A stretch of 64,000 bases of DNA from Escherichia phage Ecwhy_1 (MH791411.1); one strand, 5' to 3'. Shown: positions 54,576 to 64,000, numbered from the stretch's first letter. Numbers and translations are program-made. Notes: a model not told the origin generated them from the letters alone.

Positions 54576-55202
54576 TCACTTATTGGCATAAATAACGCTC
54601 AATGCTTGTTGGTGCAACGCTTCAATTGTGCTATTATTTTGTACAATGATATCAGGATTATTGATACCAATCCACGCCCATTCAGATTCATGAACTGATT
54701 CTAACTCAATTGGTTTCATGCTAATATCACCTTTATTAAAAGATGCTGCTAAACCATACCAGTGTGGGAGGGTACGCTGAACTTCAATCACAATACCATT
54801 TAATGAACGAATCATTTTTAGTTCATTTGGAAATCGGCAGTCAGTAATGATAATATTCCCTTCAACAGATTGCATTGACTTCTCTAAGCTATGGACCCAA
54901 ATATCATTATGAAAGTACTTACGCAAAATATTAGTACCGTAATTCTGTAATACCCAACGAGGGGAAACATCATCACGCCCCAACTTCTCACACCAGTACT
55001 GGTCTGGCTCTTCACGGAGTTTACGACTTTCCTTAGTCGAACCCTCAAGCATTTCACGATCCCATCCAAAGATAGCAGCAACTGAATCTTTAAGATTAGT
55101 TGCAAATGACATTCTTGTGTAACCATTATTGATAAAAGTTTCACCAAAAGTATCTTTGCCACTACCGATAGTACCGTTAATTGCAATTATTTGTCTTTCC
55201 AT
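54576..55202 (-). CDS. Deoxynucleoside monophosphate kinase (T4 gene 1-like)
   Basis: P-loop AINGTIGSGKDTFGE (T4 gp1 has FLSGVKRSGKDTTAD). ITDCRFPNE block resembles T4 VPDTRQDHE. Confidence 0.6.
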   Translation of the reverse strand: MERQIIAINGTIGSGKDTFGETFINNGYTRMSFATNLKDSVAAIFGWDREMLEGSTKESRKLREEPDQYWCEKLGRDDVSPRWVLQNYGTNILRKYFHNDIWVHSLEKSMQSVEGNIIITDCRFPNELKMIRSLNGIVIEVQRTLPHWYGLAASFNKGDISMKPIELESVHESEWAWIGINNPDIIVQNNSTIEALHQQALSVIYANK

Positions 55203-55220
55203 AATACTTCTCCATGTATA

Positions 55221-55499
55221 TTATATAAGTACTACTAAATCCTTTCCTACTAAACATTCAAGTAATCCAACTATAAACTCACTCCCATAATATATAGTAA
55301 CATAAGTGATGTAGAATGTTTCTCCATTATCATCACGACATATACTCGCCCACGCGTTTATTCGATCTCTACCGAAAACATCTACGATTGATTCTTTTAT
55401 AAATTTCCAGTTCTTTTCGGTTGATTCATAATCCAATGTAGGTGCTCCACAAGTATATTTGTTATACATTGCATACACTGCATCTATGTTGTTATTCAT
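55221..55499 (-). CDS. Hypothetical protein (92 aa)
   Basis: ORF directly downstream of a TGTGATATAAT element; RBS aaaggaacctgacATG. Confidence 0.5.
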   Translation of the reverse strand: MNNNIDAVYAMYNKYTCGAPTLDYESTEKNWKFIKESIVDVFGRDRINAWASICRDDNGETFYITYVTIYYGSEFIVGLLECLVGKDLVVLI

Positions 55500-55525
55500 G
55501 TCAGGTTCCTTTAGATTAATATTAT

Positions 55526-55537
55526 CATTATATCACA
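55526..55537 (-). promoter_or_regulatory. Extended -10 promoter element TGtGATATAAT (third exact copy of the cattatatcaca 12-mer)
   Basis: Exact 12-mer cattatatcaca on the + strand. No TTGACA at -35 because the terminator hairpin sits there. 28 nt upstream of the 92-aa gene ATG. Confidence 0.45.
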
Positions 55538-55540
55538 ACA

Positions 55541-55570
55541 TATAAAAAAAGACCCCATATAGGAGTCTTT
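55541..55570. terminator. Bidirectional terminator
   Basis: AAAAAAA-gacccc-atat-aggagtc-TTTTTTTT (imperfect stem) after the 263-aa gene. Confidence 0.55.
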
Positions 55571-55578
55571 TTTTTGTT

Positions 55579-56370
55579 TTATCCGATAATCATTCCAAGT
55601 GGGTCACCACCATCTTTGTATCTCTTCAACTGTTCTTTAAGCTGTTCTTGAAGTTGTGCACCTTCATTACGTAATGTATCACCATCCATAGAGAATGTAC
55701 CCTGTGGTCCAGGCAATGTAGCAAATTTAGCACGGTTGCGACCCAACATAATCATAGCTTCAGACAATGCCCAGTCACGTAGCCAAGGATAGCTTTGTTG
55801 ACGTTGGAATAGCAATGGTTCAGGTATATTATGATATACATGTAATAGCACTTCTTCAGTACCGCGAATATCACGATCAATTATTAGTTTTTTGGTCATT
55901 GGGTTGAACTGGAAGATGATTTCTCTACCAAACATACGCCCAACTAATTCTTGGAATTGAAAACTAAAATCATAAGTAGTTAAGTCATAACCACCAGCGT
56001 TACGTGCAGACGTTAAAAGGTAAGTGTTGGTAAATGCGAGTGAAAAAGGGTCTACTGAGTTACCACTACCAGAACTTAGATAACCGTTACCATAACGATA
56101 AATCTGTTTGACAATTTCAACTTCAGTAGGAAGCATGTATACAGATTGTGAATCATAGAATTTCATGTTCAAGAATGCTTCTTCTTTTGAAGCAGAACTC
56201 CATGCTCGGTAGTTTGATACCGCATTATCAATTGCAATTTCCAATTGACCATCAGTAATTTCAACTTCAACTGCACCAGCACCTAACATTTGAGTGATAA
56301 CATCTTTCAGTTTTTCACGATGATCAAAGTTTGGAGCATCTGGGTTTCCACCCATATAATCGTAAGACAT
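55579..56370 (-). CDS. Hypothetical protein (263 aa), possibly virion or neck associated
   Basis: Likely start is the ATG at 56370 (aatGAGGTGcttttttATG); the ORF-track start is 5 codons upstream, inside the SD. Confidence 0.5.
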   Translation of the reverse strand: MSYDYMGGNPDAPNFDHREKLKDVITQMLGAGAVEVEITDGQLEIAIDNAVSNYRAWSSASKEEAFLNMKFYDSQSVYMLPTEVEIVKQIYRYGNGYLSSGSGNSVDPFSLAFTNTYLLTSARNAGGYDLTTYDFSFQFQELVGRMFGREIIFQFNPMTKKLIIDRDIRGTEEVLLHVYHNIPEPLLFQRQQSYPWLRDWALSEAMIMLGRNRAKFATLPGPQGTFSMDGDTLRNEGAQLQEQLKEQLKRYKDGGDPLGMIIG

Positions 56371-56420
56371 AAAAAAGCACCTCATTAATGTTTATATACA
56401 TTATTTAGAGGTGCTAATAG

Positions 56421-56639
56421 TTATTTGGAATTATACAAGCAATACAAGTATACCATAGGAGCAAAATGTTCGGTATCAACTAAGTATATTAACTGGGTGT
56501 CATATATACCGTACAAATCTCGAAATTTATCTCTGTACAGCAACAATGACTTATTGTTGTGTGGGTCAACCCAGTACTTTAAGTCATTGTAGTGCAACGT
56601 GTTATTACGGTAACCTGATAATATTTGTTTTTTAGCCAA
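56421..56639 (-). CDS. Hypothetical protein (72 aa)
   Basis: ORF whose start overlaps the stop of the 125-aa gene by 8 nt. Confidence 0.4.
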   Translation of the reverse strand: MAKKQILSGYRNNTLHYNDLKYWVDPHNNKSLLLYRDKFRDLYGIYDTQLIYLVDTEHFAPMVYLYCLYNSK

Positions 56640-57009
56640 CTTTTTTACAATTACTTAGTAAATGCATGATGGCATCAGCGGTAAATGGTCCCAGTACTAA
56701 AACTTCTTCTCCATTACCGAAGATACTCAATGGTACAGATTGTTGTCCTGCTAGATATTCGATTTGTTCTAATTCGAAAATGTCATCAGCAGCATAAACA
56801 ACCTGTTCCATTTCATTATCTTTAATCCATGACTGCCAATGTTCTTTAAACTGCTTCGCTTCGTATTCCAGTACATAGTTAGGTGATTCTGGATTGTACT
56901 GATGTAGCATTGTCATACCAGCCATAACCAGTTCTTTTGGTGATGGAGTAGAATCTTTCAGTACTACGATAGCTTGGATAGTTTTAACTTTAACGTTTTG
57001 AGCAGCCAT
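56632..57009 (-). CDS. Hypothetical protein (125 aa); weak resemblance to Pth2-type peptidyl-tRNA hydrolase
   Basis: Segments KTIQAIVVLKDS… and …EEVLVLGPFTADAIMHLLSNCK resemble the start and the C-terminal …IGLGP…KITGKYKLL of Pth2 proteins. Judged by eye only. Confidence 0.3.
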   Translation of the reverse strand: MAAQNVKVKTIQAIVVLKDSTPSPKELVMAGMTMLHQYNPESPNYVLEYEAKQFKEHWQSWIKDNEMEQVVYAADDIFELEQIEYLAGQQSVPLSIFGNGEEVLVLGPFTADAIMHLLSNCKKVG

Positions 57010-57021
57010 TAGATACCTCTA

Positions 57022-57339
57022 TTATAGAATGATTTTGTTATCAGGAACAATCAGTGCTGGTTTTTCTTCGATAGCCTTGATTGCTTCAACATAAGCTTCA
57101 ACTAGTGCAGGGTTTGCATCGCTGATGCTAATGATGTTGGATTTATAAAAAATAACGCCTTTTTCAGAACTAATGAATTCTAGATAATCACGTAGAATGA
57201 TTTCACCTTGTTCGTCAGTACCTAGCTGTGCTGGGTAGTTAACTACTACTGCTTCTGGTGCATCATTTTGTAGAATTGCTAGTACTGGGCCAACGCTGTT
57301 GATGTTTAGTAGTTTAACGGTCATAGTCATTTTTGTCAA
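57022..57339 (-). CDS. Hypothetical protein (105 aa)
   Basis: ORF 12 nt upstream of the 125-aa gene. Confidence 0.45.
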   Translation of the reverse strand: MTKMTMTVKLLNINSVGPVLAILQNDAPEAVVVNYPAQLGTDEQGEIILRDYLEFISSEKGVIFYKSNIISISDANPALVEAYVEAIKAIEEKPALIVPDNKIIL

Positions 57340-57349
57340 GTCCTTTTGT

Positions 57350-57829
57350 TTATTTTAGAATGTATAAGTGTTTTTCTGCATTAACCAGTCTGTGGTCAAT
57401 GATTTCTTTGATAACGTTCCAGTTACCACCGCCTAAATCGGCTCCAATTTTCGGGAAGTGTACATGGATCTCTTGTGGTTCATTTTTAATGAATTCATTC
57501 ATCGAGTTAAATGCAAGGTCAATCGCATCATAACTTACATACTTCTTACCATCATTACCATAATACTCTTGTGTAATGCAGTTTGCAATAATTAAGTTAT
57601 TATTTGGTGCTGCATAGACAACTTCACCCAATTTCAAACCATTCTGATTGGTATAACGTGTATGATACACATCATATGCCAATTGGTGACGCTTTCTTAA
57701 TTCTTTTGCAAAACCAGAACCCATCTTACCCTGAGCGTTACAACCATGAGCGATAATATGTAATGCAGTTTGATCAGTAGTAACAGTACTGAATAAATCA
57801 AACAGATTACCACAATGTTCATGTATCAT
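57350..57829 (-). CDS. Macro-domain protein (ADP-ribose binding or processing)
   Basis: HIIAHGCNAQGKMGSGFAKEL matches the macro-domain core (…H.CN…G.MG.GIA…); about 160 aa is typical of a stand-alone macro domain. Confidence 0.6.
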   Translation of the reverse strand: MIHEHCGNLFDLFSTVTTDQTALHIIAHGCNAQGKMGSGFAKELRKRHQLAYDVYHTRYTNQNGLKLGEVVYAAPNNNLIIANCITQEYYGNDGKKYVSYDAIDLAFNSMNEFIKNEPQEIHVHFPKIGADLGGGNWNVIKEIIDHRLVNAEKHLYILK

Positions 57830-57848
57830 TATATTCTCCGAAAAGAAA

Positions 57849-57870
57849 GGACTCTGTAATCAGAGTCCTT
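57849..57870 (-). terminator. Rho-independent terminator (minus strand)
   Basis: aggactctg-taat-cagagtcct, 9-bp stem. The minus-strand T-rich run comes from + gaaaagaaag. Confidence 0.65.
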
Positions 57871-57880
57871 AATTTATATT

Positions 57881-58138
57881 TTATTCTTCTTCACCGAATC
57901 GAATTTTTTTCAATTCTTTTCGTTGTTTGCGAGCAATGGTACTTTTGTGAAGTCTATTACCACGTTTTGTGTCTTTCGTAATGTACCATGAATCTTCTGG
58001 TGCATTATAATCACAATAACCATCTTCTGTAATCGTCCCTAAGAAAGCAGACTTTTTAGGAATGGATGTTTGAGCTTTAGCAGCGAATTGGCCTTTTGCT
58101 AATTGTTCACGAAAACTGAGCATAATAGTATCTCCCAA
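57881..58138 (-). CDS. Hypothetical basic protein (85 aa)
   Basis: Lys/Arg-rich C-terminus. Confidence 0.45.
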   Translation of the reverse strand: MGDTIMLSFREQLAKGQFAAKAQTSIPKKSAFLGTITEDGYCDYNAPEDSWYITKDTKRGNRLHKSTIARKQRKELKKIRFGEEE

Positions 58139-58168
58139 ATTGTTACGAAGAACTTGTGTTCTTCATTA

Positions 58169-58411
58169 TTATTTAGGGTTGCTCGAAACCTCTACTGAAG
58201 CGATGAATGCCAAAATATCATCTTTACTGAAAGCTTCAATAATATAAGCAACCGCTTTATCGTACTGTTCTTTCTTAGTAGTGTATTCTTTCATTTTGTG
58301 AATTTTACGTTGTGCTTTAACTTTTGCAGCTTCCATATCAGGCATTTTAAATTCAACACCCAATGTGTCAGCTAAATGTTTTGCACGAGATGATACTTTA
58401 TCAATATTCAT
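58169..58411 (-). CDS. Hypothetical protein (80 aa)
   Basis: ORF whose stop overlaps the glutaredoxin gene start by 1 nt. Confidence 0.45.
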   Translation of the reverse strand: MNIDKVSSRAKHLADTLGVEFKMPDMEAAKVKAQRKIHKMKEYTTKKEQYDKAVAYIIEAFSKDDILAFIASVEVSSNPK

Positions 58412-58659
58412 TAATTCCAGCGACCTTCTTTAAGACCTTCAACGAAACCAGTACAGCCACCTGGAACGTAAACATCGTTTACGAAAATTTGTGGAACCTG
58501 TCGTACTGGCTCACCACATAGTTCAGATAGTTTAGCACCATCAATACCAGCGGTAACAATATCGATAAACTCCATATCAAATTTGTTATTTTCACATACT
58601 GCTTTAGCAGTGTCGCAGAATTTACAACCAGTAGTGCGACCATAAATTTTAACTTTCAT
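58411..58659 (-). CDS. nrdC: Glutaredoxin/NrdH-like thioredoxin-fold protein (T4 NrdC-like)
   Basis: MKVKIYGRTTGCKFCDTAK has the CxxC active site inside the beta-alpha-beta start of a thioredoxin fold. Overall size and layout resemble T4 NrdC (KVYGYDSNIHKCVYCDNAK). Confidence 0.7.
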   Translation of the reverse strand: MKVKIYGRTTGCKFCDTAKAVCENNKFDMEFIDIVTAGIDGAKLSELCGEPVRQVPQIFVNDVYVPGGCTGFVEGLKEGRWN

Positions 58660-59062
58660 TTCTTTTCCCTTTATTTCGTTGAAACATTGTAACAGCCTTT
58701 ATTATACTGTTACACATTCGTTCAGTCAAATACTTTTGACAATCTAGTACATCAATGTACATGAACTTATCCAATTCTGGGTGACTTCTACCATATCTGT
58801 TTGTGTAAGTACTTTTACACTCCAACTCTTCTGGTATAGGCTTATCTTTGGCTGTATAGAAAAATAAAACTAAACGTTTCCCCTTTCTATACGATACATC
58901 ACCAAGAAACAGAAGATCATCTTCATCGATTTCATATCCTGTCTCTTCGTAGCATTCACGTACAGCAGCCTCTTTAAATGTTTCTGTACCTTCAGTTTTA
59001 CCTTTAGGTAAGTCCCAGTGATTCTGTCCGTGTTGTATGCCCGATAAGTATCTGACCATCAC
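58649..59062 (-). CDS. Nudix hydrolase (second copy)
   Basis: Nudix box LPKGKTEGTETFKEAAVRECYEETGYEI (GX5EX7REUXEEXGU). Confidence 0.75.
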   Translation of the reverse strand: MMVRYLSGIQHGQNHWDLPKGKTEGTETFKEAAVRECYEETGYEIDEDDLLFLGDVSYRKGKRLVLFFYTAKDKPIPEELECKSTYTNRYGRSHPELDKFMYIDVLDCQKYLTERMCNSIIKAVTMFQRNKGKRNES

Positions 59063-59168
59063 GATAAAATATTATACCACAGCTATAACGCATAATCTTA
59101 TCTCTTTATCATCAAGTGATGTTCAGATACTAGTAATTATATCAGAAGATGTTAACTTGTCCCAGCTT

Positions 59169-60284
59169 TTAGAACATTTGCTTGATTGCTTCAATACGCA
59201 ATTCAGCAACAAAATCACGAATCTCCGATGTTTGGAGTTCACCATCTTTCACTAACTGCTGAATATCAGGTAATTCAACATCAGTATAACGATCATAAAC
59301 TTTAATAATCAAATCTTCAAGTTCAGAATCAATTTCTTTGTTCAAAATGAAGTTTTCCAGTACTTTGTAAAGGAAATCTTCACCACCATTGTTTTTGATA
59401 TTCATATCCAGTAAGATTTGTCCCATTTCAACTGGGGTCTTCTTACGGAAGGTTTTAATATCTTCACGGAAACGCTTGATGTAATTACTAAACTTAACGT
59501 ACTTAACTGGAACCTTAATGGAACCGTTAAGTACTGAATCATTATTTACTTCTTCATTTTCAAGAAGTACTGTCCATAAGAAATATGGTTTATATTCTTC
59601 TGTACAATTTGCAGCGATAGAATCAATTAATTCCAGACGTTTCTTGGTAACTGGAACTGTAGTAAATGCCTTTTCGTAATAACCAAATTGTACCAGAGTT
59701 TTGATAAACTTGGAAGGGTTTTCTTCAGAAAGTGCTTTTTCGAATTCAACAAAAACACGATCTGGAACTAGATGGTCTAGTTCACCAGTACTAACCATAT
59801 CTTTACACATTGTCATAGTATCATCATGGATTGTAAAGTCGGAGTAACGCGTAGCGAAACGGGCCAAACGTAGAACACGCAATGGATCTTCTTTAAAGTG
59901 TTCTGATACATGACGAAGTACTTTGTTCTTGATATCAGCTTTCCCGCCATAAGGGTCGATGTGAATCTGGAGTACTGGATCATATGCAATACTATTGATT
60001 GTGAGATCACGACGATATAGATCTTGTTCTAGTGTCACACCTTTTGTATTCACTTCGAAGCCACCATATCCAGTACCAGTTTTACGCTCAGTACGGGCTA
60101 ATGCGTGTTCATTACCTTCTGGACTTAGATATACAGGGAAATCCTTACCTACTTGCTTGTATCCAATACTTTGCAAGTATTTAATATCGGATTCGGTAGC
60201 ACCGACAATAACATAATCTTTGTCTTTTGCACGGATACCCATTAAACGGTCACGAACGTAGCCACCAACCAAATACTTTTTCAT
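59169..60284 (-). CDS. cca: CCA-adding tRNA nucleotidyltransferase (class II, head/neck/body only)
   Basis: MKKYLVGGYVRDRLMGIRAKDKDYV, GYKQVGKDFPVYLSPEGNEHALARTERKTGTGYGGF, RRDLTINSIAYD and EDPLRVLRLARFATRY are collinear with the E. coli CCA N-terminal half. No HD domain. Confidence 0.85.
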   Translation of the reverse strand: MKKYLVGGYVRDRLMGIRAKDKDYVIVGATESDIKYLQSIGYKQVGKDFPVYLSPEGNEHALARTERKTGTGYGGFEVNTKGVTLEQDLYRRDLTINSIAYDPVLQIHIDPYGGKADIKNKVLRHVSEHFKEDPLRVLRLARFATRYSDFTIHDDTMTMCKDMVSTGELDHLVPDRVFVEFEKALSEENPSKFIKTLVQFGYYEKAFTTVPVTKKRLELIDSIAANCTEEYKPYFLWTVLLENEEVNNDSVLNGSIKVPVKYVKFSNYIKRFREDIKTFRKKTPVEMGQILLDMNIKNNGGEDFLYKVLENFILNKEIDSELEDLIIKVYDRYTDVELPDIQQLVKDGELQTSEIRDFVAELRIEAIKQMF

Positions 60285-60285
60285 A

Positions 60286-60408
60286 TCATTCCCCCATCAA
60301 CCAATCACGTAGACGTTCCCAGAAGCCTTTTGGCTGATATTCTGGATATTCATATTCATCTGTTCCTTGCTCGGAAACACCCCAATCTTCTTCTAATACT
60401 GTAATCAC
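60286..60408 (-). CDS. Acidic micro-ORF A (40 aa), translationally coupled to cca
   Basis: Not in the ORF track (below its length cutoff). GGAGG-cattGTG start. Translation VITVLEEDWGVSEQGTDEYEYPEYQPKGFWERLRDWLMGE. Stop TGA lies 1 nt before the cca ATG. A paralog sits at 61418-61543. Confidence 0.4.
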   Translation of the reverse strand: MITVLEEDWGVSEQGTDEYEYPEYQPKGFWERLRDWLMGE

Positions 60409-60419
60409 AATGCCTCCAA

Positions 60420-60857
60420 TTAAATTAATCTATCACGTAGACGGTCGTAATATTTTGCATGTATATCTAGTATACACTGAAATGATGGATAGTCAATACT
60501 AAATGTATCATCAATGAACATGTACTGAAGAAGTGTTTCTGGTCCATTATCAACAACTGGTAATGTCCCTTCTTTTTTTGATAGGGTGTGCCACATCAAC
60601 TCACTTTCAATATGGTGAGTTGCGTATGTCAATTCAATCTTACTTTTTCGTAGTAAAATTAACAATTCATCATTGTCATCGAGTGCATTACGAAATTTAA
60701 TACGAACTGTACCCTGGAAATTATTAGTGTACATAACACGATGATGATTGTATGAAATTAAACCACGTCTTTCAGTACTGATTTCATGTTCAGCAAAGTA
60801 CTTTAACGTTTCATTAAATTTTGGAATTTTACTTGCGTCCACCAATGTAATCCTCAT
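60420..60857 (-). CDS. Hypothetical protein (about 145 aa), paralog of the adjacent 137-aa protein
   Basis: Shares the motif LLQYMFIDDTFSIDY with YLQYQFIDDTFGFDF in the adjacent 137-aa gene. Confidence 0.5.
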   Translation of the reverse strand: MRITLVDASKIPKFNETLKYFAEHEISTERRGLISYNHHRVMYTNNFQGTVRIKFRNALDDNDELLILLRKSKIELTYATHHIESELMWHTLSKKEGTLPVVDNGPETLLQYMFIDDTFSIDYPSFQCILDIHAKYYDRLRDRLI

Positions 60858-61242
60858 ATACATGATATACGTTCATTATACTATTATATAGTTCAAAGTC
60901 AAATCCAAATGTGTCATCAATGAACTGGTATTGCAGATATTCTTCATATGAAGCATCAATTGGTAATGATCCAGCACGAATATCATCTGATTTAAAATCG
61001 TCAATGTATCTTAATGTTATGTCTTCATCAACAGTAATATCTATCATCAACGTATCGTCACTGTACCAAAGGTTATGTATACGGATGTAAAGTTTCTTAG
61101 CACGATTAAAACTAGATACATTGGTATTGCGATGGAGTTTATCTAAGTTGAAGTAAAAACCAGGCTCGTTTTTACTTATGTTTTTCATATGTTCTGCAAT
61201 CGAATCAATTATATAATCAATGTTGAATGTTCTCATAAACAA
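60829..61242 (-). CDS. Hypothetical protein (137 aa), paralog of the adjacent 145-aa protein
   Basis: Tandem duplicate. Its 3' end overlaps the start of the next gene by about 29 nt. Confidence 0.5.
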   Translation of the reverse strand: MFMRTFNIDYIIDSIAEHMKNISKNEPGFYFNLDKLHRNTNVSSFNRAKKLYIRIHNLWYSDDTLMIDITVDEDITLRYIDDFKSDDIRAGSLPIDASYEEYLQYQFIDDTFGFDFELYNSIMNVYHVYEDYIGGRK

Positions 61243-61418
61243 ATCTCATAGCGGTTTGTGTTTGGATTGTAGCAATAGGTATCATTAATTTTAACACCAG
61301 GTTTAAGTGTTATTGTTGTTCCTACTTCAGTACTGGGTTCTGCATCACAATAAATCATCACACCAACGCCACAGATTAAAGCTAAGATACAAATAATAGC
61401 ACATATTGTATATTCCAT
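61233..61418 (-). CDS. Small single-pass membrane protein (61 aa)
   Basis: MEYTICAIICILALICGVGVMIYCDAEP…: one hydrophobic helix followed by a Cys-containing soluble tail. SD gatGGGGGAGtgATG. The ORF-track start is a TTG 6 codons upstream. Confidence 0.45.
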   Translation of the reverse strand: MEYTICAIICILALICGVGVMIYCDAEPSTEVGTTITLKPGVKINDTYCYNPNTNRYEICL

Positions 61419-61543
61419 CACTCCCCCATCAGCCAATCAAAGAGACGTTCCAAGAAGCCATTAGGCTTGTATTCTGGTTCTTTGTTCACGTCGGTTTCTT
61501 GTTCATAAACACCCAAATCTTCTTCAAGTATAATTGTATTCAT
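61418..61543 (-). CDS. Acidic micro-ORF B (41 aa), paralog of micro-ORF A
   Basis: Not in the ORF track (below its length cutoff). MNTIILEEDLGVYEQETDVNKEPEYKPNGFLERLFDWLMGE. Its ATG overlaps the upstream TAA by 1 nt and its TGA overlaps the downstream ATG by 1 nt. Confidence 0.4.
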   Translation of the reverse strand: MNTIILEEDLGVYEQETDVNKEPEYKPNGFLERLFDWLMGE

Positions 61544-61926
61544 TATATATTATACTCTATTATACCATCATCACTTTCACCAGACAACCACTTAATGTAA
61601 TTTACTTTGTAGAAATTAATCAATGCATAAGTGCTGTACTCAATCAACAAGTGATCTCTCAAGAATTCGTCTTGAGCATATCCATCTTCATCCAAATCTG
61701 TTGGAATATCAGTTTCTTTGTCTTGAATGTGTAAAGTTATTGTGTCTTTTGTTATACAAATTGTTATATGATTACAAATAGTAATGATGATTATGCTATA
61801 TGTTCTATTGAAATATATTGTGAAATCTTCATTAATATTATATCTTCGACTTTCTTCATATTTCTGATATGGGTCGAAATGTGATAAATTAACTTTAATT
61901 AATGTATTTCTCAACTTACACCTCAA
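61544..61926 (-). CDS. Hypothetical protein (127 aa)
   Basis: ORF translationally coupled to micro-ORF B. Confidence 0.45.
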
Positions 61927-62307
61927 TCATATAAAGTAATTATACATTTTATTGTACAATATAAAAAGGTCTTTAACATTATCATAAGTAATATCAGATA
62001 CATCATGAATTAATGATAACTGGAAAAATGATGCTTCGTCTATCTCTACTGGGATTATAACATCATAGTCTTCGTCAATTTTATGGGTGTAGTATTTTAT
62101 GTGATCAGCATTCAACACAAGGTTGTATTTTGTATCATCTTCAATTAATCCGACAAATTGAGATTTTTGATTAATAAAAAATCCAATCCCAACACAACGG
62201 TTATCTGGATATGGATAGTACCATCTATTAATAACTAGGTGTTCAGGTAAGTCCATATCATGTGTTGATATTAAAGATTTTACAATTCCCATCCAGGAAT
62301 AATTCAT
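61927..62307 (-). CDS. Hypothetical protein (126 aa)
   Basis: ORF abutting the next gene with no gap. Confidence 0.45.
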   Translation of the reverse strand: MNYSWMGIVKSLISTHDMDLPEHLVINRWYYPYPDNRCVGIGFFINQKSQFVGLIEDDTKYNLVLNADHIKYYTHKIDEDYDVIIPVEIDEASFFQLSLIHDVSDITYDNVKDLFILYNKMYNYFI

Positions 62308-62327
62308 AATTAAAACTCCATAAGAAA

Positions 62328-62349
62328 AGGGACAGAATAATCTCTGTCC
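62328..62349 (-). terminator. Rho-independent terminator (minus strand)
   Basis: gggacaga-ataatc-tctgtccc, 8-bp stem with T/A-rich flanks, after the HPF gene. Confidence 0.65.
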
Positions 62350-62361
62350 CTTTATTATATC

Positions 62362-62694
62362 TTACTCTTCGTCTTCAGTCAAGTCTTCTTGAACTGGATG
62401 TTCGGGGTGGTTACGGCGATGCAATTTGATGCTTTTGTCTTTACCTAAGACAGTTTCCATTTTTTCAAATGAATCACCAATTGCTTTGTATAAATCTGCA
62501 TCATCGGCGGTGACAATCTTACCACCTGATGTTAAAGTTACGGAATATTGATTCTTATGCTCTTTCTTCACATGAACACCGATATAAAGTACTGAAGAAT
62601 CACTAAACTTCGTTAGTGCATTTGCTTCTGCATGAATCGCGTCATTGATTGCTGGAGTAATATCAACATTACCTTGGATAACTAAATCTAGCAT
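62362..62694 (-). CDS. hpf: Ribosome hibernation-promoting factor/RaiA family protein
   Basis: MLDLVIQGNVDITPAINDAIHAEANALTKF…VHVKKEHKNQYSVTLTSGGKIVTADDADLYKAIGDSFEKMETVLGKDKSIKLHRRNH is collinear with bacterial HPF (M.LNITG.HVEITPAL…L.V.G..I.A….D.Y.AID….KL.RQL.KHK). Confidence 0.7.
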   Translation of the reverse strand: MLDLVIQGNVDITPAINDAIHAEANALTKFSDSSVLYIGVHVKKEHKNQYSVTLTSGGKIVTADDADLYKAIGDSFEKMETVLGKDKSIKLHRRNHPEHPVQEDLTEDEE

Positions 62695-62719
62695 AATTTA
62701 CCTACCTTTTTTTTTAGTT

Positions 62720-63646
62720 TTAAAGATTACTAACTAACAATTCTGCACGGTTTCCTACTTGACGATACCATAGAGAATTCTTAATTTCTTTTTTGAACTT
62801 GTTATTATTTTGATTATCAACGCTTTTCCATAATTTATTGAAAGTATTTAACTTATCAACTCCTAATGTAAATGCCATCTCAAATAAAATTCGTTGTTGT
62901 TCAGCCGTAAGGTTTGTTGCATTTCTTTTCTTCAATAATAAAACTAAATCATTATTAGTTCGTTCCATGTCAGACAATAAAAGTTTATGTGCTTGTGACT
63001 TCGTAATACCATTACGATACTTACTTGCATCTGATTCTTTCTTTCCAAGATAATGTCCGTACCCAATAGTGAAGTTACCTTTTATATCACGATACGGATA
63101 AAATTTAGAATTTCGATATGGAACTCCAACTTTCCCACCAAGTAAACGTCGTTTGTTCTTGGACTGAAATTCAATAGAACCTTCAGCTTCTTTGATGTGA
63201 TTGACAATTTCTGGATCTTTATAATCAAACAGTACAGTCACATCTGGTAACAATACGTGCTTCAAATCCTCTTTTGTTGGGATAAAGATACCCTGAGAAG
63301 TATGAAGAGTTGCATTTAAGTTGATGTTCTTCAACAAAATGACATAATCTTCAATCTGTACATTTTTAGGTTTAAATTTCTGTGCAATAGAATAATAACT
63401 ATCACCAGGTTGAACCGTATAATGTTTCTCGCTGCTTGGAACTGCTTTTGGTACTGACACCTGTGGTAGTTCCTGCTTTTGAATTTGCGTAACTTGTGGT
63501 TTTAAATTATGCACCTGACTTTCGTCTAATGATGATGCACGATCACTTTGAGAAAAACCATAAAATCCAATCGCAGCGAATAGGGCTGATGAAACTAATA
63601 CGCCTACGGCAATTTTAGTTTTCAGTTCTTTTTTCGCTTTTTTCAA
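62720..63646 (-). CDS. Peptidoglycan hydrolase: signal-anchor (SAR-like) + LysM + GH24 lysozyme
   Basis: Probable TTG start 4 nt after AAAGGAGG. The N-terminus then reads MKKAKKELKTKIAVGVLVSSALFAAIGFYGF, a basic n-region followed by a Gly/Ala/Ser-rich helix. LysM (YTVQPGDSYYSIAQKF). T4-lysozyme-like core (GNFTIGYGHYLG…ITKSQAHKLLLSDMERTNNDL…ILFEMAFTLG…SLWYRQVGNRAE). Confidence 0.75.
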   Translation of the reverse strand: MKKAKKELKTKIAVGVLVSSALFAAIGFYGFSQSDRASSLDESQVHNLKPQVTQIQKQELPQVSVPKAVPSSEKHYTVQPGDSYYSIAQKFKPKNVQIEDYVILLKNINLNATLHTSQGIFIPTKEDLKHVLLPDVTVLFDYKDPEIVNHIKEAEGSIEFQSKNKRRLLGGKVGVPYRNSKFYPYRDIKGNFTIGYGHYLGKKESDASKYRNGITKSQAHKLLLSDMERTNNDLVLLLKKRNATNLTAEQQRILFEMAFTLGVDKLNTFNKLWKSVDNQNNNKFKKEIKNSLWYRQVGNRAELLVSNL

Positions 63647-63762
63647 AACGCCTCCTTTGTTGGTTGTTAACAATGAGCAATCACAAAGAGGGCAAAGAGG
63701 CCATTTGCAAAAGCCTCATTGGACTTTCTACAGTACTCAGTTGTTCTTTGGAACATTTAAGT

Positions 63763-63790
63763 AGTATAGCATACTTTTTAGTTATATCAA
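63763..63790 (-). promoter_or_regulatory. Candidate sigma70 promoter TTGATA-N16-TATACT for the lysin gene
   Basis: Minus strand reads TTGATAtaactaaaaagtatgcTATACT, about 115 nt upstream of the lysin start. Confidence 0.35.
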
Positions 63791-63813
63791 GACCTATTTA
63801 CCAAATAACCACA

Positions 63814-64000
63814 TTAATCGTAGTATGTTCTACCAATGGTGATGTGATATTTGAAATATTTAGATGCCAAACCCAGTTCATTACGAATATGTGCAATGAA
63901 ATCATCTTCAAACTCTATGATAAAGAATGACCCAGGTTTCTTATTGTCTTTTACTTCTTCGATGAAAGGATCGAACTTAATCTTAACTTTCATACCATCG
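63814..64000 (-). CDS. Hypothetical protein, 5'-truncated by the window edge
   Basis: Open minus-strand frame from the window end to the TAA at 63814 (…FIIEFEDDFIAHIRNELGLASKYFKYHITIGRTYYD*). Only about 62 C-terminal residues are visible. Confidence 0.4.
   Translation of the reverse strand, partial: DGMKVKIKFDPFIEEVKDNKKPGSFFIIEFEDDFIAHIRNELGLASKYFKYHITIGRTYYD

What the first reader, a model, noticed from the sequence alone, without database searches (positions are those of the whole stretch)
56632..62694. Translation-targeted auxiliary gene set: HPF, CCA-adding enzyme, possible Pth2-like protein
- Within 6 kb on one strand the phage encodes a ribosome hibernation factor (clear HPF/RaiA signature), a minimal class-II CCA-adding enzyme lacking the HD domain, and a 125-aa protein with weak Pth2-like features.
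- A CCA enzyme implies repair of tRNA 3' ends, for example after host anticodon/CCA-targeting nucleases or for phage tRNAs lacking encoded CCA.
- A phage HPF suggests active control of ribosome dimerisation or hibernation during infection.
- Together these point to a strategy of protecting or reprogramming the host translation apparatus, possibly as counter-defence against translation-targeting abortive-infection systems.
Basis: partly seen in the sequence, partly recalled or inferred. Interest (0 to 1): 0.6.

Follow-up and report, generated by a model that had tools for sequence, protein, structure and literature searches.

The report
Known jumbo-phage translation genes: HPF, CCA, Pth2-like
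This stretch of an Asteriusvirus-type jumbo coliphage does carry a ribosome-hibernation-factor homologue, a tRNA CCA-adding enzyme and a Pth2-fold protein, but all three are already annotated in close relatives, the CCA enzyme most simply serves the phage's own CCA-less tRNAs, and the Pth2-like protein lacks the Pth2 catalytic residues.

Summary
All three ORFs lie on the minus strand at the stated coordinates.

- **HPF/RaiA homologue (62362-62694):** it scores above Pfam's cut-off.
- **CCA-adding enzyme (59169-60284):** a class-II enzyme with every catalytic motif intact and the HD motif segment deleted.

The window is 98% identical to Escherichia phage Turkey3 (Asteriusvirus-like). There these genes are already named RaiA, CCA tRNA nucleotidyltransferase and peptidyl-tRNA hydrolase. 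Papers on RaK2 and Sharanji, and Mizuno 2019, already discuss such genes.

In two relatives, 3 of 6 and 4 of 7 phage tRNAs lack an encoded CCA. Maturation of the phage's own tRNAs is therefore the simplest role for the CCA enzyme. The HPF homologue carries a conserved RaiA-like acidic C-terminal tail.

The three genes are separated by at least 11 unrelated ORFs and by terminator-like hairpins, and RaK2 has no HPF at this position. A coordinated counter-defence module is not supported, though it is not excluded. Novelty and interest are low.

The parts
62362..62694 (-). Short HPF/RaiA-family protein, 110 aa, with a C-terminal extension ending in an acidic cluster (…RRNHPEHPVQEDLTEDEE).
   Evidence: Pfam S30AE scores 43.1 bits against a cut-off of 23.7. 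It hits solved HPF chains. Identity is 29% to E. coli HPF and 25% to RaiA. The tail is conserved in UE-S1, EJP2, Hallingskeid and the distant contig L007, and parallels RaiA's …EEVEEE. dN/dS is 0.13.
62326..62353 (-). Terminator-like hairpin directly after the HPF stop codon (AAAGGGACAGA…TCTGTCCCTTT followed by TCTTAT).
   Evidence: Found by the pattern scan and read in the sequence. A terminator is annotated at the same place in phage UE-S1. The overall terminator count is not above chance (5 found against 3.8±2.3).
59169..60284 (-). Class-II tRNA nucleotidyltransferase (CCA-adding type), 371 aa, without the HD phosphohydrolase motif.
   Evidence: Pfam PolyA_pol and PolyA_pol_RNAbd match, as does phrog_2244 tRNA nucleotidyltransferase at 9e-117. 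The NCBIfam multifunctional Cca model is matched only at positions 1-204 of 409, at 281 bits against a cut-off of 451. All motifs are invariant against E. coli Cca and the HD segment is deleted. dN/dS is 0.10.
56632..57009 (-). Pth2-fold protein, 125 aa (phrog_14786), lacking the canonical Pth2 catalytic residues. It is the last gene before the neck (gp13/Ad2) gene.
   Evidence: The residue table shows that equivalents of S. solfataricus K16/K18/Q22/H25/D86/G88/T90 are not conserved and that loop 91-98 is deleted. dN/dS is 0.056. The family has only 24 representatives among 1.84 billion proteins. The phAPEC6 orthologue gp281c is not in the virion proteome.
57350..57829 (-). Macro-domain protein, 159 aa, T4 Tk.4-like and DarG-like. 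It is a context gene, not part of the translation theme.
   Evidence: Pfam Macro is weak at 0.0031. It matches phrog_335 'phosphatase' at 1.3e-44 and PADLOC DarG at 3.4e-9. RaK2 annotates the orthologue as Tk.4.
57022..57339 (-). 105-aa protein of unknown function (phrog_527). It follows the macro gene in the window, RaK2, L006 and L011.
58649..59062 (-). NUDIX hydrolase (NudE-like), directly downstream of the CCA gene.
   Evidence: Pfam NUDIX at 7.9e-12 and phrog_1185. RaK2 annotates the orthologue as nudE.
58411..58659 (-). Glutaredoxin, 82 aa.
   Evidence: Pfam Glutaredoxin at 9.8e-9.
62720..63673 (-). LysM + phage-lysozyme protein. Its stop codon lies 25 bases upstream of the HPF start, so the two genes are probably co-transcribed.
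   Evidence: Pfam Phage_lysozyme and LysM match. The lysozyme-HPF pair is also seen in L007, EJP2 and Hallingskeid.
55579..56385 (-). Neck protein (gp13 / head-tail adaptor Ad2). It marks the start of the structural block and always lies directly downstream of the Pth2-like gene.
   Evidence: phrog_211. The adjacency is seen in L007, L010, L011 and RaK2.

Best explanation
The segment is a vertically inherited block of non-structural auxiliary genes of RaK2/121Q-type jumbo myoviruses. Here the phage is Asteriusvirus-like, 98% identical to phage Turkey3. The block lies between a LysM-lysozyme gene and the neck/sheath genes. Its three translation-related genes most likely act independently of one another.

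1. **CCA enzyme.** It is a catalytically intact class-II tRNA nucleotidyltransferase that has lost the HD phosphohydrolase motif. Its most likely job is to complete, and keep repaired, the 3' CCA of the phage's own tRNAs, about half of which are encoded without CCA. E. coli tRNA genes encode CCA, so host Cca is only a repair enzyme (established knowledge). This step is inferred from relatives' tRNA genes.
2. **HPF homologue.** It is a short HPF-family protein with RaiA-type architecture: the core plus a roughly 20-residue tail with an acidic end. By homology it is predicted to sit in the 30S decoding channel of vacant host ribosomes. Like RaiA, it would hold them as inactive 70S rather than promote RMF-dependent 100S dimers. 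This is inferred, not shown.
3. **125-aa protein.** It is a true homologue of Pth2 by fold and profile but has lost the Pth2 catalytic and signature residues. It is probably not a canonical peptidyl-tRNA hydrolase. Strong purifying selection shows that it has some other, unknown function inside the cell rather than in the virion. The best guess is that it binds an acceptor-end or other ester ligand, or hydrolyses one using different residues.
For: - **Phage identity and existing annotation:**
- **CCA enzyme:** motifs are intact and the HD segment is deleted. tRNA genes without encoded CCA number 3 of 6 in fEgEco12 and 4 of 7 in Sharanji. The RaK2 paper already proposed maturation of the phage's own tRNAs (PMC3622015).
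- **HPF homologue:**. The tail is conserved across phage homologues down to 28% identity and parallels E. coli RaiA. Mizuno et al. proposed that viral HPF competes with cellular homologues to prevent dimers (PMC6375957).
- **Pth2 fold:**. **Lost catalytic residues:**. **Selection:**. **Not virion-associated in phAPEC6:**
- **Block conserved in distant relatives but HPF dispensable in RaK2:**
Against: - The tRNA evidence comes from relatives that are 95% and 84% identical in this region. The window itself has no tRNA gene, and the rest of its genome was not available.
- Host Cca could mature CCA-less phage tRNAs, as it does for T4 (established knowledge). The phage enzyme is therefore not strictly required, and its benefit is unproven.
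- The only experiment on a phage HPF, the more distant rV5 protein, found no ribosome association and no effect on 100S.
- The phage HPF core is slightly closer to E. coli HPF than to RaiA. The RaiA-like reading rests on the tail alone.
- Loop alignments between the 125-aa family and Pth2 are uncertain by a few positions. K25 is nearly invariant among close relatives and could act as a substitute lysine.
- The catalytic roles of K18/D86/T90 are recalled from the literature and were not re-read here.
- Conserved order of HPF…CCA…Pth2-like at about 27% protein identity could reflect functional coupling.
Confidence: 0.6

Rival explanations
1. The three genes form a functional counter-defence set that protects or repairs the translation apparatus against abortive-infection toxins aimed at translation. 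Examples are tRNA 3'-end modifiers or nucleases such as CapRel, MenT/AbiE-type nucleotidyltransferases and GNAT toxins.
For: - The order lysozyme-HPF…CCA-NUDIX-Grx…Pth2-like-neck is kept in a contig whose proteins are only about 27-55% identical.
- Relatives add a YqeY domain protein to the same block.
- RaK2-type phages also carry PNK and RNA ligase elsewhere.
- The neighbouring macro domain resembles the antitoxin DarG, so anti-defence genes do occur in this block.
Against: - At least 11 unrelated ORFs lie between the three genes.
- Terminator-like hairpins split the block.
- HPF is missing at this position in RaK2.
- The CCA enzyme lacks the HD end-healing motif.
- The Pth2-like protein lacks the catalytic residues.
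- There are no hits to defence-system models.
- Synteny in phages is largely inherited.
Confidence: 0.15
2. The 125-aa protein is an active peptidyl- or aminoacyl-tRNA hydrolase, as annotated in phage Turkey3. It would recycle tRNA from drop-off products during the translation burst, or reverse N-acetyl-aminoacyl-tRNA made by GNAT toxins, using a re-arranged active site.
For: - It is a genuine Pth2 homologue.
- It is very strongly constrained, with dN/dS 0.056.
- Canonical Pth2 genes are common in large phages.
- Asteriusvirus genomes mostly lack the canonical ORF188-type Pth2 that RaK2 has, so this protein could fill that role.
Against: - None of the Lys, Gln, His, Asp, Gly or Thr positions is conserved, and the PGT loop is deleted in almost all 22 family members.
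- RaK2 keeps both this protein and a more canonical Pth2, which suggests different functions.
- E. coli has an essential Pth1 of its own (PMC4929431).
Confidence: 0.25
3. The HPF homologue is a translation shut-off or ribosome-preservation factor expressed together with the lysozyme. It would silence or protect ribosomes at a defined stage of infection, or in stationary-phase hosts, by true hibernation that includes 100S formation.
For: - Its start lies 25 bases after the lysozyme stop, and a hairpin follows it.
- The core is closest to E. coli HPF at 29% identity.
Against: - The conserved RaiA-like tail predicts antagonism of dimerisation rather than promotion (established knowledge of RaiA).
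- A blanket inhibitor would also block phage translation.
- rV5 HPF had no effect on 100S.
Confidence: 0.2

Closest known systems
E. coli RaiA (YfiA/pY) and short HPF (YhbH), Pfam PF02482
   Same: It has a single S30AE domain of about 90 residues and no long-HPF dimerisation domain. Like RaiA, it has a roughly 20-residue C-terminal extension with basic residues followed by an acidic end.
   Different: Identity is only 25-29%. It falls below NCBIfam's HPF/YfiA cut-off at 34.7 bits against 40.9. It is more acidic overall, with pI 5.1. Ribosome binding is untested.
Phage-encoded HPF homologues (Cronobacter phage GAP32, rV5-like coliphages; Mizuno et al. 2019, PMC6375957)
   Same: It is the same kind of gene in large myoviruses. 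GAP32 belongs to the same jumbo-phage group and its protein is 111 aa.
   Different: The rV5-type proteins are a separate, more distant lineage and were not found by tblastn at E<=1e-3.
E. coli multifunctional Cca (class-II CCA-adding enzyme with HD domain)
   Same: The head and neck domains match, with motifs A-E invariant and 38% overall identity.
   Different: The HD metal-binding segment is deleted, so no 2',3'-cyclic phosphodiesterase or phosphatase activity is expected. The score is 281 bits against an equivalog cut-off of 451.
RaK2 gp031 and other phage tRNA nucleotidyltransferases (phrog_2244)
   Same: It is an orthologue in the same genomic position, next to nudE and a glutaredoxin gene.
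   Different: No material difference was found.
Archaeal/eukaryotic peptidyl-tRNA hydrolase 2 (Pth2, PF01981) and viral Pth2 (RaK2 ORF188, mycobacteriophage Myrna gp36)
   Same: The α/β fold and core residues are shared: the Trp of helix 2, the Pro before β3 and the C-terminal GP.
   Different: It lacks the GKGK lysines, the AQxxH motif and DxGxTxxxPGTxT. It has a family-specific insertion (Q-Y-x-P…G..E) after helix 1.
Atu0240 / DUF2000 (PDB 2gax), a Pth2-fold protein of unknown function
   Different: Identity is 14% and there is no sequence-level hit. Its function is also unknown.

Membership tests
HPF/RaiA (Ribosomal_S30AE, PF02482) | Sequence match to the S30AE domain above the curated threshold | tested here: met
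   43.1 bits against 23.7, covering profile positions 5-84 of 88. It also hits solved HPF chains down to E=9.6e-8.
HPF/RaiA (Ribosomal_S30AE, PF02482) | NCBIfam HPF/YfiA equivalog cut-off | tested here: not met
   TIGR00741 scores 34.7 bits against a cut-off of 40.9, and PRK10470 scores 23.3 against 125. It is a divergent member.
RaiA subtype | Short form with a C-terminal tail that occupies the RMF site and blocks 100S formation | tested here: inconclusive
   A tail of similar length with an acidic end is present and conserved. Its position on the ribosome cannot be tested here, and the core is marginally closer to HPF.
HPF/RaiA | Binds the 30S decoding channel and inhibits translation | not testable with these tools
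   A related experiment on rV5 HPF found no ribosome association (PMC6375957).
Class-II CCA-adding enzyme | Motif A (GGxVRD…DxD), motif B (RRD) and motif D (EDxxR) | tested here: met
   G7G8xV10R11D12, D21/D23, R91R92D93 and E132D133P134L135R136 are invariant against E. coli Cca.
Multifunctional Cca (E. coli type, NF008137) | C-terminal HD phosphohydrolase domain | tested here: not met
   The model is matched only at positions 1-204 of 409. The HD segment is deleted. Pfam HD is positive for the E. coli control and absent for the phage protein.
Class-II CCA-adding enzyme | Adds the full C-C-A, as opposed to CC-only or A-only enzymes | not testable with these tools
   This is inferred from the best match to gammaproteobacterial CCA-adding models and the conserved loop ERKTGTGYGGF.
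Pth2 (PF01981) | Sequence match above the Pfam threshold | tested here: inconclusive
   The window protein has no hit at E<=1. Its RaK2 orthologue scores 30.2 bits and L007 scores 34.2 bits, both above the cut-off of 23. 8 of 11 relatives hit at E<=1.
Pth2 (PF01981) | Pth2 α/β fold | tested here: met
Pth2 (PF01981) | Catalytic and signature residues: S. solfataricus K18, D86 and T90 (roles recalled from Fromant et al. 2005, not re-read here), and the DxGxTxxxPGTxT motif, which is invariant in five solved Pth2 structures | tested here: not met
   The aligned columns are variable in all 22 family members, and loop 91-98 is deleted.
Pth2 (PF01981) | Hydrolyses peptidyl-tRNA | not testable with these tools
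Co-regulated translation/counter-defence module | Genes adjacent and co-transcribed | tested here: inconclusive
   All are on the same strand. However, they are separated by at least 11 ORFs and two hairpins, and promoter-like sites are not above chance (48 against 43.4±6).
Co-regulated translation/counter-defence module | Components co-occur across relatives | tested here: not met
   RaK2 keeps the CCA and Pth2-like genes but has a non-HPF ORF at the HPF position. In L011 the Pth2-like gene sits next to different genes.

The most novel reading that the evidence does not exclude
The 125-aa protein founds a small, phage-only branch of the Pth2 fold: 24 representatives among 1.84 billion proteins, with dN/dS 0.056. 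It has dropped the hydrolase residues and gained a conserved insertion. It may act as a non-catalytic binder or decoy for tRNA acceptor ends or for a host factor, for example by shielding aminoacyl- or peptidyl-tRNA from, or titrating, a host toxin aimed at tRNA. Alongside it, the RaiA-tailed HPF homologue would keep host ribosomes out of RMF-driven 100S dimers, so that the phage can replicate in slow-growing cells.
Probability: 0.12. Interest if true: 0.55.

Novelty: already known. Interest (0 to 1): 0.22.

Why it matters
Large phages that bring their own translation accessories show how viruses take over or protect host protein synthesis. For this locus, the genes and the idea are already in the databases and the literature.

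Three refinements come out of this check:
- The CCA enzyme matches a concrete need, because about half of the phage tRNAs are encoded without CCA. It also lacks the end-healing HD motif.
- The HPF homologue is RaiA-like in its tail, which gives a testable prediction that it opposes ribosome dimerisation.
- The 'peptidyl-tRNA hydrolase' label carried by at least one relative (phage Turkey3) is probably an over-annotation of a Pth2-fold protein with a different function.

Tried and rejected
- **125-aa protein alone.** Searching the window protein on its own gave nothing useful: no Pfam, NCBIfam or PADLOC hit, and only one non-significant PDB hit at E 1.1. Homology appeared only through family profiles and structure.
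- **Related loci.** The search for related loci with the 22-sequence alignment failed because no stretch was conserved enough. The closer alignment found only 121Q and RaK2 in IMG/VR.
- **Pth2 active-site literature.** The Powers et al. 2005 paper (PMC2253226) is not held. The catalytic roles of K18/D86/T90 therefore rest on memory, backed by the invariance of the motif in the solved sequences shown.
- **Structural role for the Pth2-like protein.** This was considered because the gene is always adjacent to the neck gene. It was rejected as unlikely because the phAPEC6 virion proteome lists the neck protein gp280c but not gp281c-gp293c.
- **Transcription signals.** Sigma-70-like sites are not above chance. 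The T4 late-promoter motif TATAAATA is absent. No transcription units are claimed beyond the hairpins.
- **Non-coding RNA.** Rfam finds nothing in 55000-64000. The 246-nt gap upstream of the neck gene folds only marginally better than shuffles, z -2.1.
- **Literature on phage HPF.** Searches for experimental work on jumbo-phage HPF found none beyond Mizuno 2019.
- **HPF charge.** Comparing the charge and pI of the HPF core was uninformative.

Full report
**What the window is.** A megablast of 56000-63800 against GenBank phages finds 39 records, almost all jumbo coliphages of the 121Q/PBECO4 (Asteriusvirus) type. The best is Escherichia phage Turkey3, at 97.9% identity over 100% of the query. 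In Turkey3 the three genes of the finding are already named 'ribosome-associated inhibitor A', 'CCA tRNA nucleotidyltransferase' and 'peptidyl-tRNA hydrolase'. RefSeq and other records call the first 'HPF/RaiA family ribosome-associated protein'. Going by Turkey3's annotation of the matching region, most of the rest of the window is structural: sheath, tube/baseplate and tail fibres. The window has no tRNA gene.

**Checking the observation.** All ORFs are on the minus strand at the stated coordinates.

*HPF homologue (110 aa, 62362-62694).*
- It matches Pfam Ribosomal_S30AE at 43.1 bits against a cut-off of 23.7.
- It hits solved HPF and RaiA-type chains.

*CCA enzyme (371 aa, 59169-60284).*
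- It has the PolyA_pol head and RNA-binding neck domains.
- It is full-length phrog_2244 'tRNA nucleotidyltransferase'.
- The E. coli-type multifunctional Cca model matches only its first 204 of 409 positions.
- Aligned with E. coli Cca, GGxVRD, D21xD23, RRD, DPYGG and EDPLR are invariant. The segment carrying E. coli's GIHT…CHDLGK…HHGH residues is deleted, both here and in a distant relative.
- Pfam HD is found in the E. coli control but not in the phage protein.
'Minimal' is too strong, because a 165-aa C-terminal region remains.

*125-aa protein (56632-57009).*
- Alone it has no Pfam or PDB sequence hit.
- 8 of 11 close relatives hit Pfam PTH2.
- The RaK2 orthologue (64% identical) and a 27%-identical relative both exceed Pfam's cut-off.
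- A 22-sequence family profile hits six archaeal Pth2 structures, with E from 1.5e-5 to 6.5e-3.
- Foldseek against viral models returns viral Pth2 proteins.
- The Pth2 resemblance is therefore real homology.

All three genes are under purifying selection against phage UE-S1, with dN/dS of 0.056, 0.10 and 0.13.

**The Pth2-like protein is not a canonical Pth2.** I aligned S. solfataricus Pth2 to the family model and read off the columns.
- Positions equivalent to K16, K18, Q22, H25, D86, G88 and T90 are variable across all 22 members. The window protein has P, P, E, M, G, G and E there.
- The eight-residue loop 91-98 (the PGT loop) is deleted in nearly all members.
- In the five solved Pth2 sequences printed, the motif DxGxTxxxPGTxT is invariant.
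- The catalytic roles of K18/D86/T90 are from my memory of Fromant et al. 2005. I could not re-read a source.

What the family keeps is the fold's core: W61, P93 and G107-P108. It also has its own insertion, Q-Y-x-P…G..E. The family is tiny, with 24 representatives at E<1e-3 among 1.84 billion proteins.

RaK2 carries both this protein (ORF037) and a second, more canonical Pth2 (ORF188, 58.6 bits). ORF188 retains the GK, AQxxH and D-x-G elements. That second type is widespread in related jumbo phages but nearly absent from Escherichia records.

The phAPEC6 orthologue (gp281c) is not among the 62 virion proteins, while the adjacent neck protein gp280c is. A structural role is therefore unlikely.

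**The CCA enzyme has an obvious client.**
- In fEgEco12 (95.5% identical in this region), ARAGORN finds six tRNA genes. Ser(tga), Ser(gct) and Met encode CCA. Asn and both Thr genes have discriminator + C-A-A.
- In Sharanji (84% identical), four of seven (Gly, Ser, Asn, Thr) have CA(A/T) instead of CCA.
- E. coli tRNA genes encode CCA, and T4 tRNAs that lack it depend on host Cca (established knowledge).
- The RaK2 authors already proposed that gp031 matures the phage's tRNAs.
- Loss of the HD motif means the enzyme cannot by itself heal phosphate-blocked ends. This weakens the 'repair after nuclease attack' reading for this protein on its own. RaK2-type phages carry PNK and RNA ligase elsewhere.

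**The HPF homologue is RaiA-like in architecture.**
- Its core is 29% identical to E. coli HPF and 25% to RaiA.
- It has a C-terminal extension, RRNxPxHPVxxDLTEDEE, that is conserved in UE-S1, EJP2 and Erwinia phage Hallingskeid.
- The acidic end also persists in a contig protein only 28% identical (QEDEE). It parallels RaiA's …RR…EEVEEE, which HPF lacks.
- In E. coli the RaiA tail blocks RMF binding and 100S formation (established knowledge, from memory).
- The prediction is therefore 70S silencing or stabilisation and antagonism of dimerisation. This is the idea Mizuno et al. raised for viral HPF.
- The same paper found that rV5 HPF did not co-purify with ribosomes and did not change 100S levels. 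Function therefore remains open.

**Is it a module?** In transcription order the genes run as follows:
- lysozyme, then HPF, then a hairpin;
- five small ORFs, two of them tandem paralogues, and a short unlisted one that Turkey3 annotates;
- CCA, NUDIX, glutaredoxin, two small ORFs, then a hairpin;
- macro, a 105-aa ORF, then the Pth2-like gene;
- a 246-bp gap, then neck, dNMP kinase and sheath.

This backbone is kept in RaK2 and in an 87-kb metagenomic contig at about 27-55% protein identity. However, RaK2 has a non-HPF ORF at the HPF position. In another contig the Pth2-like gene has entirely different upstream neighbours. Its one constant neighbour is the neck gene.

None of the three proteins hits a defence-system model. 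Promoter-like sites are not enriched. I read this as an inherited block of independent auxiliary genes. A coordinated counter-defence role is possible but has no positive support.

**Novelty.** Phage HPF genes (Mizuno 2019), the RaK2 CCA enzyme and Pth2, and the Sharanji list of S30EA, CCA, IF3, a tRNA deaminase and seven tRNAs are published. Close relatives of this very sequence carry the annotations. The finding is correct but already known.

The small additions here are the CCA-less tRNA count, the conserved RaiA-like tail, and the evidence that the 'peptidyl-tRNA hydrolase' label is probably an over-annotation.

Noticed in passing
window 57350-57829 (-): This macro-domain protein (T4 Tk.4-like) matches the ADP-ribosyl-glycohydrolase antitoxin DarG: PADLOC 3.4e-9 and NCBIfam 3.4e-6, the latter far below its cut-off. 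It could reverse DarT-type DNA ADP-ribosylation. In the window, RaK2, L006 and L011 it is followed by a roughly 105-aa protein of unknown function (phrog_527).
   Followed up: partly
window 60420-60863 and 60829-61242 (-): Two adjacent, slightly overlapping ORFs (147 and 137 aa) belong to the same family, phrog_20693. They share a C-terminal LQYxFIDDTF motif, so they form a tandem paralogue pair between HPF and CCA.
   Followed up: no
whole window: The T4 late-promoter octamer TATAAATA does not occur once in 64 kb of 35-40% GC sequence. Shuffles give 7.0±2.8 occurrences.
   Followed up: no
window 56386-56631: There is a 246-bp unannotated gap between the Pth2-like gene and the neck gene, where distant relatives have only 44-50 bp. 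It contains a 72-aa TTG ORF (56421-56639) with no PHROG hit. The RNA fold is marginal (z -2.1) and there is no Rfam hit.
   Followed up: partly
L017 (RaK2 164253-164666); tblastn: RaK2-type phages of Klebsiella, Yersinia, Erwinia, Serratia, Pectobacterium, Cronobacter and Xanthomonas carry a second, more canonical Pth2 (ORF188 type). Among Escherichia records only two hold it (EJP2 is the one listed), so most Asteriusvirus genomes have only the divergent Pth2-fold gene.
   Followed up: partly
L018 5629-5720 (Sharanji) vs L003 2874-2963 (fEgEco12): One phage tRNA-Ser has anticodon ACT in Sharanji but GCT in fEgEco12. Sharanji is reported to encode a tRNA-specific adenosine deaminase. The phage tRNA-Met genes are unusually long, at 79-90 nt.
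   Followed up: no
L007 7587-8021; L011 1-133: Distant relatives carry a YqeY/GatB-type domain protein inside the same auxiliary block. L011 also has PRPP synthase, NAPRTase and a glutathionylspermidine-synthase-like gene just upstream of the Pth2-like gene.
   Followed up: no
L020 1958-3211 (Erwinia phage Hallingskeid); L019 2839-4092 (EJP2): In Hallingskeid, a 417-aa gene annotated as RNA ligase lies about 2 kb upstream of the lysozyme-HPF pair. EJP2 has an unannotated gene of the same length at the matching place. No equivalent was seen in the window's end or in the corresponding stretch of Turkey3.
   Followed up: no
Salmonella phages SD-1_S14, SD-2_S15, SD-6_S16; P0006: In these roughly 310-320-kb Salmonella phage records, the HPF match covers only the C-terminal 36-50% of the protein. 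The Pth2-like protein of SD-6_S16 has an internal 17-residue deletion and a different C-terminus. These may be decayed copies or assembly problems.
   Followed up: no
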